Under the pieces are notes generated by a model that ran no database searches, was not told where the DNA came from, and saw only the letters and a program-made list of their open reading frames with translations. Made by a program: the position numbers and the translations under genes. 64,000 nucleotides of DNA from the human T2T-CHM13v2.0 reference genome, Homo sapiens, in NCBI RefSeq assembly GCF_009914755.1, contig NC_060934.1. The stretch is one strand, 5' to 3'. Position 1 is the first letter of the stretch. Each line of letters starts with the position of its first letter. Shown here piece after piece: positions 24,865 through 57,488 of the stretch.

Positions 24865-24941
24865 CTTTAGAAAGTGCAAGTGAATGATAGTAACCACAAG
24901 CAACCTGTACAATCTGGATATCTGACAAACTTTTAATATTT
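24865..24941 (-). CDS. HERC4: HERC4 coding exon 3 (exon 5), NIKSLSDIQIVQVACGYYHSLALSK
   Basis: Acceptor cttcttttctAG, donor AAG|GTAAGC; 77 nt, phase 2 to 1; RCC1 motif VACGxxHSLAL. Confidence 0.96.
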
Positions 24942-25943
24942 CTAGAAAAGAAGAAGACAGATCAAGACCAGTTAATTCCATTTAACAAATTGATCTTGAA
25001 TGCTATTTATGTTATTTATTGATGGCCTACTATATGCACATAGGTCATATTATTTTTTTTCATACAAGCTCAATTTTAGCGTACCAAAAATTTATGCTAA
25101 AATCAGTAAACAAGAGCTAGATACAAAAAAAAAAAATTAAAGGGGTGAAAAGAACACATCTTGGAAAGACAGTATTTAAGCAAAGTGAGCTATACTCATA
25201 CCTCAAGTACTCCTCAGAGTGCTCTTATAATTCAGATATTTTCTTTCATTATAAAAACGTGTTTTTAAATCATCAGCTTACAGTTAGAAACTTGGCAATA
25301 CATCTGGAAAGCAAATGTACATTATCTAATTTGTCTAAAATTGGTGTTTTGCCTAGTTTAATGCACGTTCTCCTTTATCGGGTTTCTTAAGAACCAACAG
25401 GGATTCTTGTATGTTCTACCAACTCTCAAATTATGAAACCTATTCCTTACAAGCTATCCTTTTGCTTTACGTCTAAATCAGGGACATTCAATTTTTTTAC
25501 TCAGGAAATTTACTCAATTCACAGTTATAACAATCATTACTAATATGTTAAGTCTTATTTTCTTCTGTCTTGTATTTTGTCCTTATACTTTCGTAATTTC
25601 CTTCCCCCCTTTCCTGAGTTTTGTTTTACCACAACGCAACTTTAAAGGCTCATTTTTAAAACATTACAAAACTCAATTAACTTTGTATGTACATCAACCA
25701 TCCCAGCATCTCCATTGGTTCTTTCCCTTTGCCTGGTCATGTTACTGTTTTTCCTGAATGAATGTTTTCAAGAAAAAAAGGGGGGATGCCAGATGCGGAT
25801 TACAGGTGGGTTACTGTAATCCCAGCACTTTTGGAGACCAAGGTAGGCGGATCACTTGAGGTCAGTCAGGAGTTTGAGACCAGACTGGCCAACCTGGTGA
25901 AACACTGTCTCTACTGAAAATACAAAAAAAAAAAAAAAAATTA

Positions 25944-26153
<210 letters not shown>

Positions 26154-26185
26154 TTATTTCCCTTTACCTGATACTGTCACCTGAC

Positions 26186-26257
26186 CTGATTCTGCCATAA
26201 GAGAGTCCGGAGCAAATTCTGACCAGAGAGTCGACACACATGATTTTCGGGAAGCAG
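26186..26257 (-). CDS. HERC4: Candidate in-frame 72-nt cassette exon of HERC4 (SCFPKIMCVDSLVRICSGLSYGRI)
   Basis: Branch-like TAAC, pyrimidine tract, ttgctgaAG acceptor; donor CAG|GTCAGG (alternatives at 26181 and 26168); open in the phase-2 frame; retains CpGs in an AT-rich intron. Confidence 0.55.
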
Positions 26258-27033
26258 CTTCAGCAAATCAAAGTTTGAGCAGGAAAAAGGAGAGTTACTC
26301 TGATTCCATATTATTGTATTAAAAATATTTTTATTTAGTGAAGTTATGCTCTTAACTACAAAACCTGAGAGCTGTACTGCTACAATTTAGCAGAATCCAA
26401 CAAATTAGCAGGATCCAATGCACCTTCAAATTTTCAAACTCAACAAAATGCCATTTCTTTGAAATAGCAAAATCAAACACTGGCAATGCAAACAGAGTAA
26501 GGAATAAAAAATACATGAACATACCCAACTGTGCTCAAATTACTAAACATTTACTGTTATTGTTTATGCATACTAGGCAGATGATACATTGACCTGTTCA
26601 GCATATTAAGTATTTTAGGAAAAAAAAACACTATTCTGAGTATCAAGTACAATTTTGCAAATGAAACATTTCAAAATACTACATTCTCACAGTACTGTAT
26701 GTTTTTTCCTTCAGAGCATTTATCGCTACTAACCACAGGTACCTATTCATTTAATATTTGTCTCCTCTGCTAAACAGTAAGTTCTGTGAAGGCAGACTAT
26801 GTGTTTTATACCCATGATAATGCCTGGCACCTACTATAGTGCCTAATTAATAGTACGTAATGAATATACTGTTAAAGGATAACTACATTTGTAAGGTCTT
26901 GGAGGCTTTAGTATTAGTCATAAAATTTGCCAAAAATTTTCTAAATTTGCATAGCAATTTATACTCAGTTACTCTCCTTTCCAAAATACTAACCTAAGGC
27001 TTGTAACACACATTAAATGCTAATATCTTTTAC

Positions 27034-31178: not shown

Positions 31179-31338
31179 CTGGGTACTCTGATGCATTCCT
31201 CTGATCCTACCAGGCCAAGCTGTCCATCAGAATCGAGACCCCAAGCATACACCTGGCCTTTGTCATTTAGCGCTAACGTATGAGCTTCTCCACATGAAAC
31301 AGCTACAATATTTTGGGCATCCAGGGCAACAACCTGCT
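31179..31338 (-). CDS. HERC4: HERC4 coding exon 2 (exon 4), (E)QVVALDAQNIVAVSCGEAHTLALNDKGQVYAWGLDSDGQLGLVGSEECIRVP(R)
   Basis: Acceptor tttctgtAG, donor CAG|GTAACA; 160 nt, phase 1 to 2; continues the RCC1 repeats in frame. Confidence 0.96.
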
Positions 31339-54300: not shown

Positions 54301-54514
54301 GTGGGATAATCTGGTATTTTTATTTTTAACCCACCCTTAAGTGAGTAACTTTATTTCCCATAGTTATATTTTCCTATATTACTTTTTAAATTTCAACTAT
54401 ATTTTAAGGAGCAGCTCGTTTATAAATTTGTTTTATGAACAGAGAGAACAGGTCAGAAAAATGAAGAAGCAAGAAAGGCAAGCCAAGTAATCACTACTAT
54501 GTGACCAAAATGCT

Positions 54515-54520
54515 TTTATT
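54515..54520 (-). terminator. Candidate intronic poly(A) signal AATAAA
   Basis: AATAAA on the minus strand followed ~30-75 nt downstream by a U/pyrimidine-rich tract (54485-54440); other AATAAA at 56910-56905 and 55837-55832. Confidence 0.35.
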
Positions 54521-54827
54521 GGAATGACTCAACAGTAGAAATTACCATTCGAGGATATGGAAAACAAAGAATCAATGCTCATCATCTTTAAAAAGAGTTC
54601 AACATAAACCACAATAAATTTTATCATACTATTAAAACTATTACCTATAAACTCTGCCAATCGAGTTAGTCTTCCATTCAGTAATACACTATACATATTT
54701 GAATTTTTTAGCTTTTGTTGGTACAATATTACATCTTGAAAATAGAACTCTCGATCTTCTTATCAGTTCTTAAAATGATTTTTAAGTTTGTGTACAAGGG
54801 GGAAGACAATAAAATATGCTGTCTTCA

Positions 54828-55493
<666 letters not shown>

Positions 55494-55629
55494 TCAGAAT
55501 TACAATAAAATACTGATGGAAACCAGCTTCCTCAAAGGTGAACAAATATTCTTTTACCTTCTAAATGTAGCAAAGGAAAAGATTTGTGAGATTAAGGATA
55601 AAAACCACAAGATTTAGGGTGGTCTCAAG

Positions 55630-55780
55630 ATGTGCTAGCCAAGTGACCCTATTAGTCTCTTAATCTCTTTTAACCTCAGTGTCCTCATCTGTAAAATGCG
55701 GACCATGATACCTGCCTTAGCTACATACAACTGTTGTGAGAATTAAATGAGATACTCCATTTGAAAGAATGTTGTAAAAC
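55630..55780 (+). mobile_element. MIR
   Basis: cctcagtgtcctcatctgtaaaatg...gttgtgagaattaaatgaga core. Other MIR-like pieces at ~42290-42400, 45290-45600, 46840-46980 and 53810-54050. Confidence 0.8.
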
Positions 55781-56662
55781 ACAAAAAACTGTTTTTTAGA
55801 TAACAGGGCTTGTTTTTAAACAGAACACCACTTTATTTACAAATTATGGTCACAGAACAGTTTAGTACTGTTTCTAACATGAAACAAATGGAAATCAATG
55901 TGCAAAACATAACCATGGTCACCAAATTATACCTATGATTAGATACACAGTAAGAAAAGGATCTTGTAAAGAAAAGTATACTTCCCATACTTAAAATCTT
56001 CAGAACTGAATTTGAAAGTATAAAAAAACAACAATTCATTTAAATGGATTGGTCTAGCGCACTGAAGATTAAATATATTTGTTAGCTATAAATTTAAAAA
56101 TTGAGACATTAGCTTAAAAAGTATTTTAAAGTTCTTATGAAGAAAAAAACATGAAAGTGAAACAGACATTCACTTCTCTGGAAATAATTCAGAAAAGCCA
56201 GTAGTGATAGAAAAGGACATACATATACAAGACAACAGAGATGAACATGAACATAATCTGCACCTTTAGTATAATAAAGGAATTCAGTTAAATCTTTCTG
56301 TGTGGTCCCTAAAAAGTCCAGAACAGAAACACCTCTTTTCAATAGGCCACAGGTTAAATCTATTCACTACATTGTCAGGCCAAGTCCTCCAGTAGGTTAT
56401 TATGAATCTCGAGAATAATTTATCCTTAATAAGGCTACCTCTTTCTCTTTCATTCCTTATTAGTTATGGAATATGTATATTTATAAAGCCAACCTATGTA
56501 AAGAAACAATTCTTAGTTCCCTCCATTCCATGTGCTTTCTGACACAAGTTTAAAGTTCTTGTGAAGTCAGCTGGGCACGGTGGCTCACGCCTGTAATCCC
56601 AGCACTCTGGGAGGCCAAGGCGGGCAGATCACAAGGTCAGGATATCAAGACCATCCTGGCTA

Positions 56663-56939
<277 letters not shown>

Positions 56940-57116
56940 TCAATTACCAGAAGACTTTAAAATAAATAAGATCCAACAACTTTTTATCTTTTAATCCAGT
57001 CCTCAAATTCACAAATTTAAAAAGGGGTTGGGGAAATGACACAAATCATTAACGAATTATTCCAAATATAAATAACTTTAGTTAAAAACATTCTTAAAAT
57101 TTAGTTAAAAACATTA

Positions 57117-57488
<372 letters not shown>

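What the first reader, a model, noticed from the sequence alone, without database searches (positions are those of the whole stretch)
26168..26300. Hidden in-frame cassette exon inserting 24 aa (3 Cys) into the RCC1 propeller, with a triple donor
Seen: unique-looking, CpG-retaining sequence in AT-rich intron 4. On the minus strand it reads gagTAAC-tctcctttttcctgctc-aaactttgattTGCtgaAG, followed by a frame open in phase 2. Three donors: CAG|GTCAGG (72 nt, in frame, ..VP-SCFPKIMCVDSLVRICSGLSYGRI-RNIK..), CAG|GTGACA (77 nt, frameshift) and CAG|GTAAAG (90 nt, in frame). The insertion falls in the 'P+..I..L' linker between RCC1 repeats. Established: UGC motifs between the pyrimidine tract and AG are typical of SRRM4/nSR100-regulated neural exons. 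Inference: a tissue-regulated loop insertion that alters substrate binding, or an NMD switch. It may match an already predicted isoform.
Basis: partly seen in the sequence, partly recalled or inferred. Interest (0 to 1): 0.7.

Follow-up and report, generated by a model that had tools for sequence, protein, structure and literature searches.

The report
Annotated conserved alternative HERC4 exon
This is a real alternative exon of the human HERC4 ubiquitin-ligase gene that gene catalogues already list and several other mammals share; it adds 24 or 30 amino acids inside the protein's propeller domain, and its purpose is unknown.

Summary
On the minus strand an AG acceptor (exon start 26257) is followed by a frame open in the needed phase and by three GT donors, giving exons of 72, 77 and 90 nt.

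The exon is not hidden. The hub table lists 26186-26257 as a RefSeq exon. The protein database holds 26 HERC4 models with this insert from 14 species: 4 hominids, pig, 6 bats and 3 carnivores.

The 24-aa form appears in 6 species and the 30-aa form in 9. Two of the three donors are therefore supported and shared across mammals. The 77-nt donor has no support and would give a premature stop.

Against human, the 24-aa core is 18-20 of 24 identical in pig, bats and carnivores, and 18 of 24 positions never vary. Two of the three Cys are invariant.

AlphaFold2 places the insert inside beta-strand 124-130 of the third propeller blade, not in a linker. It models the insert as a low-confidence loop-out with the rest of the propeller intact.

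SRRM4 or neural control is untested. The published SRRM3-dependent HERC4 event is called a microexon, probably a separate 24-nt exon.

Verdict: already known, real, conserved, functionally uncharacterised.

The parts
31179..31338 (-). Upstream constitutive HERC4 exon (NM_015601.4 exon 4). It ends ...GTA CCC AG|gtaaca and leaves 2 nt of a codon.
   Evidence: and the hub table. Its 52-aa translation found HERC4 proteins.
26294..26297 (-). Candidate branch point TAAC (A at 26295), 38 nt upstream of the exon start.
   Evidence: No AG lies between it and the acceptor; the AG-free distance is 38 nt. Branch use is inferred, not shown.
26281..26294 (-). 14-nt pyrimidine run, set back from the acceptor.
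   Evidence: The proximal region -23..-4 holds only 12 of 20 pyrimidines, below the 13-17 of the 8 constitutive acceptors in the window.
26279..26281 (-). UGC at -24..-22.
   Evidence: Its role is untested.
26263..26265 (-). UGC at -8..-6, between the pyrimidine run and the AG.
   Evidence: None of the 8 constitutive acceptors has TGC within 25 nt of its AG. Its role is untested.
26258..26259 (-). Acceptor AG, in the weak context AAG|C.
   Evidence: It matches the RefSeq exon boundary 26257 in the hub table.
26186..26257 (-). Core cassette exon, 72 nt. It encodes 24 aa, SCFPKIMCVDSLVRICSGLSYGRI, whose first codon is shared with the upstream exon.
   Evidence: and the hub table. This form is in models of human, gorilla, chimpanzee, orang-utan, leopard and panda.
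26168..26185 (-). 18-nt extension, used when donor 3 is chosen (90-nt exon). It adds RSGDSI in hominids and RSGGSI in the other species.
   Evidence: The 30-aa form is in chimpanzee, pig, 6 bats and jaguar. No human model with it was seen.
26180..26185 (-). Donor 1 intron part, GTCAGG (CAG|GTCAGG).
   Evidence: 7 of 9 consensus positions, U1 duplex -7.4 kcal/mol. The annotated exon end is 26186.
26175..26180 (-). Donor 2 intron part, GTGACA (CAG|GTGACA). It gives a 77-nt exon and a frameshift.
   Evidence: 7 of 9 positions, -8.1 kcal/mol; stop at codon 197. No model supports it.
26162..26167 (-). Donor 3 intron part, GTAAAG (CAG|GTAAAG). Its TAA closes the frame if the intron is retained.
   Evidence: 7 of 9 positions, -8.3 kcal/mol..
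24865..24941 (-). Downstream constitutive exon (exon 5). It starts A AAT ATT AAA (..R NIK..).
   Evidence: the hub table.

Best explanation
This is a genuine, already annotated alternative coding exon of HERC4. It is shared by at least primates, pig, bats and carnivores. It is spliced between exons 4 and 5 through one weak acceptor and two tandem in-frame donors 18 nt apart.

The exon is 72 or 90 nt long and adds 24 or 30 residues after Pro128. That site lies inside the first beta-strand of the third blade of the RCC1-like propeller, two residues before the strand ends.

Shown here: the splice signals, the open frame, the existence of models with both forms in several species, conservation of the peptide, and the position of the insert in the predicted fold.

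Inferred: the insert loops out of the strand and leaves the propeller folded. It would place a hydrophobic segment with two invariant Cys on the propeller, changing what the RCC1-like domain binds or how stable it is. Because the acceptor is weak, inclusion probably needs an activator and is therefore restricted in tissue or level.
For: Sequence: searches show the signals and the frame. All three donors match 7 of 9 consensus positions. Their U1 pairing energies (-7.4, -8.1, -8.3) fall within the range of this gene's own donors (-5.5 to -11.8). This locus holds the only in-frame open candidates in the intron at that stringency: 4 of 19 pairs, all here.

Annotation: the hub table lists exon 26186-26257.

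Protein models:
- 20 of the 120 stored HERC4 proteins carry the insert.
- A search centred on the insert gave 26 proteins at E <= 0.001 among 169 candidates. All 26 carry it, from 14 species.
- They come from more than one annotation source. One is a UniRef-only pig entry, and one is a bat 'hypothetical protein' with a locus tag.
- A 240-aa partial chimpanzee 'isoform 7' also carries it.

Conservation: identity of the core to human is 18-20 of 24 in pig, bats and carnivores. 18 of 24 positions are invariant over 15 sequences. The changes are mostly conservative: F/L, V/I, S/T, Y/F. The 6-aa extension is 5 of 6 identical.

Structure: AlphaFold2 with the insert gives mean pLDDT 88.9 and pTM 0.82. 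Only residues 128-150 fall below 50, and all other blades are intact. Without the insert, strand 124-130 has block pLDDT 94-98.
Against: - No read-level or tissue data could be reached, so inclusion level is unknown and could be very low.
- All cross-species evidence is predicted protein models, not DNA. Species in which the exon is broken would be invisible. The database is clustered at 90% identity, so presence and absence by species are both incomplete.
- No rodent and no non-hominid primate model with the insert was seen.
- The insert cuts a conserved strand at a site that is gap-free in all but 4 of about 40 distant homologues, and AlphaFold2 gives it pLDDT about 30. The included isoform could therefore simply be destabilised.
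- The flanking exons are 96-100% identical, so the insert evolves faster than they do.
- Constraint on the protein rather than the RNA could not be separated without orthologous DNA.
Confidence: 0.8

Rival explanations
1. One reading: inclusion is driven by SRRM4/SRRM3 through UGC motifs next to the acceptor, so the exon is neural or neuroendocrine.
For: Two UGC lie at -8..-6 and -24..-22. The pyrimidine run is set back and the AG context is weak. None of the 8 constitutive acceptors of the window has TGC within 25 nt of its AG. A preprint uses UGC as the SRRM3 motif and shows that HERC4 has an SRRM3-dependent, brain-specific event (10.1101/2024.06.13.598849; passages seen).
Against: That preprint calls its HERC4 event a microexon. 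HERC4 has a separate 8-aa (24-nt) exon, DVNHGLTE, between the RCC1-like and HECT domains, which fits better. This exon is 72/90 nt long. Two trinucleotides are weak evidence. No expression data were available, and the preprint's supplements with event ids are closed.
Confidence: 0.15
2. A switch to non-productive splicing: the 77-nt donor shifts the frame, and the transcript is removed by nonsense-mediated decay, lowering HERC4 output.
For: Donor 2 is as good as the others by consensus and U1 pairing (7 of 9, -8.1). The shifted frame stops at codon 197, in the second exon downstream of the cassette and with many junctions after it.
Against: No annotated exon ends at 26181 (hub table). No truncated protein of this kind was found among shorter proteins: 1 hit among 5 candidates, and that hit is the 24-aa in-frame form. 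The two supported forms keep the frame. The peptide is conserved, which a pure decay switch does not need.
Confidence: 0.05
3. Splicing noise: a pseudo-exon used at trace level and picked up by automatic gene prediction, with no function of its own.
For: The human support seen here consists of predicted 'X' models. The acceptor is weak. The insert breaks a conserved strand and is modelled with very low confidence. No paper in the searched library mentions it.
Against: The same exon, with the same two donors, is modelled in 14 species of four orders. Its identity to human is 75-83%, and 18 of 24 positions are invariant. From recalled neutral divergence between human and these orders, about 0.3 per site, I would expect less than half the residues to be kept and frequent stops. 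CpG is retained.
Confidence: 0.1
4. Exonised transposable element, for example from the neighbouring antisense Alu.
For: An antisense Alu starts about 45 nt downstream of donor 3.
Against: The 161-nt stretch and the 31-aa peptide each hit only themselves in the 3.1-Gb own genome. The exon is shared with pig, bats and carnivores, which lack Alu (recalled). An ancient, decayed repeat cannot be excluded, because no repeat library was on hand.
Confidence: 0.03

Closest known systems
RefSeq/Gnomon predicted HERC4 isoforms with the insert: human X2 (1073 aa), X8 and X9, and the orthologous models in 13 other species
   Same: It is the same exon. The coordinates 26186-26257 match the hub table, and the peptide is identical in P0059, P0024 and P0025.
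   Different: Nothing differs structurally. The human models seen here carry only the 72-nt form, while other species also or only carry the 90-nt form. None of the papers found by the searches describes the isoform.
Tandem alternative 5' splice sites that keep the frame
   Same: Two donors 18 nt apart both follow ATCAG|GT. Both preserve the frame, and both are used in models of several species.
   Different: A third donor lies between them, 5 nt from the first. It would shift the frame and has no support.
SRRM3/SRRM4-dependent neural microexons, including the HERC4 event of preprint 10.1101/2024.06.13.598849
   Same: UGC close to the acceptor, a pyrimidine run set back from it, and a weak AG context.
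   Different: The length is 72/90 nt rather than a microexon. Tissue pattern and factor dependence are unknown. The published HERC4 event is most likely the 24-nt exon encoding DVNHGLTE, located elsewhere in the gene (my inference).
Poison (decay-inducing) cassette exons
   Same: Both are alternative exons conserved inside an intron.
   Different: The two supported forms carry no stop and keep the frame.

Membership tests
Conserved alternative coding cassette exon | Canonical AG acceptor and GT donor, with usable branch point and pyrimidine tract | tested here: met
   The donors match 7 of 9 positions. The acceptor is weak (AAG, 12 of 20 pyrimidines) but has a 14-nt pyrimidine run and a 38-nt AG-free zone.
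Conserved alternative coding cassette exon | Length a multiple of 3 and no stop in the phase set by the flanking exons | tested here: met
   for the 72- and 90-nt forms. Not met for the 77-nt form.
Conserved alternative coding cassette exon | Both inclusion and skipping forms exist in transcript models | tested here: met
   The hub table gives NM_015601.4 as skipping, with other transcripts including the exon; 20 of 120 stored proteins have the insert, 97 lack it and 3 could not be parsed.
Conserved alternative coding cassette exon | Orthologous exon with preserved frame in distant species | tested here: met
   14 species of four orders. This rests on protein models only.
Conserved alternative coding cassette exon | Junction reads or cDNA evidence, and the inclusion level | not testable with these tools
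   No RNA-seq resource was available.
SRRM4/SRRM3-regulated neural exon | UGC within about 30 nt upstream of the acceptor | tested here: met
   UGC at -8..-6 and at -24..-22.
SRRM4/SRRM3-regulated neural exon | Microexon length (27 nt or less; wider definitions reach about 51 nt; recalled) | tested here: not met
   The exon is 72 or 90 nt. Longer targets exist (recalled), so this lowers the claim but does not exclude it.
SRRM4/SRRM3-regulated neural exon | Neural-specific inclusion and dependence on the factor | not testable with these tools
   No expression data were available. The preprint's event ids are in figures and supplements that are not held.
Poison exon / decay switch | Inclusion introduces a premature stop | tested here: not met
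   the 72- and 90-nt forms stay open. Only the unsupported 77-nt form stops, at codon 197.
Exonised repeat | Other copies in the genome | tested here: not met
   Searches gave self hits only. Ancient repeats below the sensitivity of these searches are not excluded.

The most novel reading that the evidence does not exclude
The exon has been kept for at least the age of the common ancestor of primates and Laurasiatheria. In this reading it is a regulated module that opens the first strand of blade 3 and displays a hydrophobic hairpin or loop with two invariant cysteines on the propeller. This would give HERC4 a second, tissue-restricted substrate or partner specificity, or a redox-, metal- or lipid-dependent contact. 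The 18-nt donor choice would tune the length of the module.
Probability: 0.2. Interest if true: 0.5.

Novelty: already known. Interest (0 to 1): 0.3.

Why it matters
HERC4 is a HECT ubiquitin ligase whose RCC1-like propeller is thought to recruit substrates (recalled). A conserved alternative exon that cuts into one blade would be the obvious place to look for isoform-specific substrate choice.

As a scan result it is ordinary. The exon is in the current RefSeq annotation and in predicted proteins of many mammals. Three things are added here. The exon and both in-frame donors are shared beyond primates. The insert sits in a strand rather than a linker. The neural reading has no support yet.

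Tried and rejected
- Searching the protein database with the 31-aa peptide failed because the query was too short. A longer reference failed because it held two stops. I dropped that route and used the upstream exon and a stored protein instead.
- I tested whether the insert is a degenerate copy of an RCC1 strand pair (P-K-I-M..L..V.I..G looked like P-R-N-I..L..V.V..G). It gave no Pfam match at E <= 10 and no BLASTP alignment to HERC4 at E <= 100, so I rejected the idea.
- I looked for a local RNA structure around the three donors. The fold of 26140-26310 has z +1.93, and 198 of 200 shuffles fold at least as well, so I rejected it.
- I looked for a paralogous exon in other HERC genes. The peptide hits only itself in the own genome.
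- Other published HERC4 splicing events turned out to be different exons. The UV-induced alternative last exon is a fourth exon of a 6.3-kb pre-mRNA (PMC5332558, passages). The event sensitive to the exon junction complex is skipping of exon 24 (PMC12630143, passages). PMC4268817 and PMC6224609 do not discuss HERC4 splicing in their main text.
- The peptide IMCVDSLVR is in no main text of the library.

Full report
**Observation.**
- TAAC, with a candidate branch A at 26295.
- A 14-nt pyrimidine run at 26294-26281.
- A purine-containing spacer holding TGC at 26265-26263, plus a second TGC at 26281-26279.
- The acceptor AAG| with the exon starting at 26257.

Three GT donors follow, each preceded by CAG. 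Their last exon bases are 26186, 26181 and 26168, giving exons of 72, 77 and 90 nt. The flanking constitutive exons end with ...CCC AG (31179) and begin with A AAT (24941). The stop-to-stop frame at the locus is 31 codons, closed downstream by the TAA inside donor 3.

Splicing the annotated coding exons in silico keeps the frame open through every downstream exon of the window for the skipped, 72-nt and 90-nt forms. The 77-nt form runs into a stop at codon 197, window 20911.

**Is it more than chance?** A 24-codon open frame alone is unremarkable, but the whole arrangement is not.
- All three donors match 7 of 9 consensus positions. They pair with the U1 5' end at -7.4, -8.1 and -8.3 kcal/mol, within the -5.5 to -11.8 range of the nine annotated HERC4 donors in the window.
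- The acceptor is the weakest part. It has A at -3 and only 12 of 20 pyrimidines at -23..-4, against 13-17 for the 8 constitutive acceptors. It does have a 38-nt AG-free zone back to the candidate branch point.
- I scanned the 6237-nt intron with thresholds set at the candidate's own values, so they are post hoc. This gave 78 acceptor-like sites, 9 donor-like sites and 19 pairs 30-200 nt apart. Only 4 pairs are in frame and open, and all 4 lie at this locus.
- The exon has GC 0.49 and CpG o/e 0.71, against 0.35 and 0.27 for the intron.
- The 161-nt stretch and the 31-aa peptide each match only themselves in the 3.1-Gb own genome. It is therefore neither a young repeat nor a copy of a paralogue's exon.

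**What it is.** The hub's gene table already lists 26186-26257 as an exon of other HERC4 transcripts. The protein database confirms and extends this.
- A search with the upstream exon's 52 residues returned 667 proteins at E <= 0.001 among 687 candidates, of which the best 120 were kept. Among those 120, 20 carry the insert right after ...IRVP, 97 go straight to RNIK, and 3 could not be parsed.
- A second search scored only residues 124-168 of a chimpanzee model. It gave 26 proteins at E <= 0.001 among 169 candidates, and all 26 carry the insert.
- The 26 come from 14 species: human, chimpanzee, gorilla and Bornean orang-utan; pig; six bats (Myotis myotis, M. daubentonii, Eptesicus, Pipistrellus, Cnephaeus, Pteropus alecto); jaguar, leopard and giant panda.
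- The 24-aa form (donor 1) is modelled in human, gorilla, chimpanzee, orang-utan, leopard and panda.
- The 30-aa form (donor 3) is modelled in chimpanzee, pig, all six bats and jaguar.
- A search among shorter proteins found one more, a 240-aa partial chimpanzee 'isoform 7' with the 24-aa form.

Because the database is clustered at 90% identity, this species list is a lower bound. The lack of rodent or monkey models with the insert is not evidence that they lack the exon.

**Conservation.**
- Against the human/chimpanzee sequence, the 24-aa core is 23 of 24 identical in orang-utan and 18-20 of 24 in pig, bats and carnivores.
- The 6-aa extension is 5 of 6 identical (D to G).
- The flanking exons are 50-52 of 52 and 24-25 of 25 identical.
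- Variation is confined to six positions (F/L, C/G/S/I, V/I, S/T, I/A/T, Y/F/N). The other 18 never vary in the 15 sequences compared.
- The first and third Cys are invariant and the second is not.

From recalled neutral divergence between human and these orders, roughly 0.3 substitutions per site, I would expect fewer than half of the residues to be kept. So the stretch is under constraint. I could not show that the constraint acts on the protein rather than on the RNA, because no orthologous DNA is reachable with these tools. There is also an ascertainment bias, since only species with an open, predicted exon appear.

**Where the insert sits.** AlphaFold2 on the human 1073-aa model used a 65-sequence alignment that includes distant HERC relatives.
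- It gave mean pLDDT 88.9 and pTM 0.82. The only long low-confidence segment is 128-150, with block means of 31 and 30.
- The other blades show the usual four strands.
- The same domain without the insert was modelled from a manatee RLD-only isoform that is 98% identical over the query exon. It gave pLDDT 94.4 and a clean strand 124-130 with block pLDDT 94-98.

Pro128|Arg129 is therefore inside a beta-strand, two residues before its end, as in the other blades (strands 21-27, 72-77, 201-207, 254-259 and 306-311 each hold the Pro). With the insert, only 124-125 and 153-154 remain strand.

In the 65-sequence alignment, the junction after the Pro is gap-free in the distant homologues except four: P0185, P0210, P0219 and P0235. 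Natural length variation lies before the Pro, not after it.

By the usual propeller topology (recalled), this is the first, inner strand of the blade. The insert would leave it near the face opposite the GQLG loops. That assignment is my inference.

The insert is hydrophobic, with 10 of 24 residues from F, I, M, V, L and Y, which is unusual for a floppy loop. The low confidence may reflect the few sequences that cover it. Pfam still recognises the RCC1-like domain and seven RCC1 repeats with the insert present.

**How it most likely works.**
- Shown: splice signals, frame, both in-frame forms in several species, peptide conservation, and position in the fold.
- Inferred: the weak acceptor makes inclusion depend on an activator and therefore restricts it. 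The included segment loops out of strand 124-130 and changes the surface or stability of the RCC1-like domain, and so partner or substrate binding.
- Confidence: about 0.8 that it is a real conserved alternative coding exon, and well under 0.5 for any particular functional consequence.

**The neural reading.** UGC near the acceptor is the motif used for SRRM3 in a preprint on pancreatic neuroendocrine tumours. That preprint also reports an SRRM3-dependent, 'almost exclusively brain specific' HERC4 microexon (10.1101/2024.06.13.598849; passages seen; figures and supplements not held).

HERC4 has a separate 8-aa exon, DVNHGLTE, between the RCC1-like and HECT domains. That 24-nt exon fits 'microexon', whereas the present 72/90-nt exon does not. 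That the preprint means that exon is my inference.

Two UGC within 25 nt, against none at the 8 constitutive acceptors, is suggestive but thin. I put this reading at about 0.15.

**The decay reading.** This applies only to donor 2. No model, no annotated exon end and no truncated protein supports it (hub table).

**Literature.** Six answered searches found no paper that describes this exon. The HERC4 events in print are a UV-induced alternative last exon (PMC5332558, passages), exon 24 skipping (PMC12630143, passages) and the microexon above. Supplementary tables of splicing atlases were not searched and may list the event.

**Verdict.** The feature is already annotated, so it is not novel as an object. 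The points that go beyond the annotation are its conservation beyond primates, the shared pair of in-frame donors, and its position inside a propeller strand.

Noticed in passing
window 25202-26166 (minus strand): The hub table lists this 965-nt exon of other transcripts. It starts at the T of donor 3's GT, is preceded by GG rather than an AG acceptor, and ends at a donor GAG|GTATGA. It looks like an alternative first exon or a 5'-incomplete model, and it contains antisense Alu sequence. I could not tell which transcript owns it.
   Followed up: partly
window about 25830-26125 (minus strand): An antisense Alu, with a poly-T followed by GAGACAGGGTCTTACTCT..., starts about 45 nt downstream of donor 3. 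It could influence splicing of the cassette in primates only.
   Followed up: no
window 26218 (minus strand): An internal acceptor-like site...CTCTCTGGTCAG|AATTTGC, would give in-frame open exons of 33 or 51 nt with donors 1 and 3. No model supports it.
   Followed up: no
proteins P0124 and P0126 (jaguar, leopard): These models carry 14 further residues (SNSYRDKRELSSET) between ...IRVP and the insert. The human intron has a TGA directly upstream of the acceptor, so this part is not shared in that frame.
   Followed up: no
HERC4 protein, after ...QQQAYGM (outside the region of the finding): A separate 8-aa alternative segment, DVNHGLTE, distinguishes the 960/952-aa and 936/928-aa human models. 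It is probably the brain-specific microexon of the SRRM3 preprint.
   Followed up: partly
window 54498-57407: This exon of other transcripts probably corresponds to the UV-induced alternative last exon of the short HERC4 isoform. PMC5332558 describes a fourth, unique terminal exon, a 6.3-kb pre-mRNA and a 110-aa product. The coordinates were not checked.
   Followed up: no
proteins P0024/P0025 against P0059: The human X8/X9 models combine the insert with loss of 121 residues after ...PQISQQV. The cassette is therefore modelled together with other alternative events.
   Followed up: no
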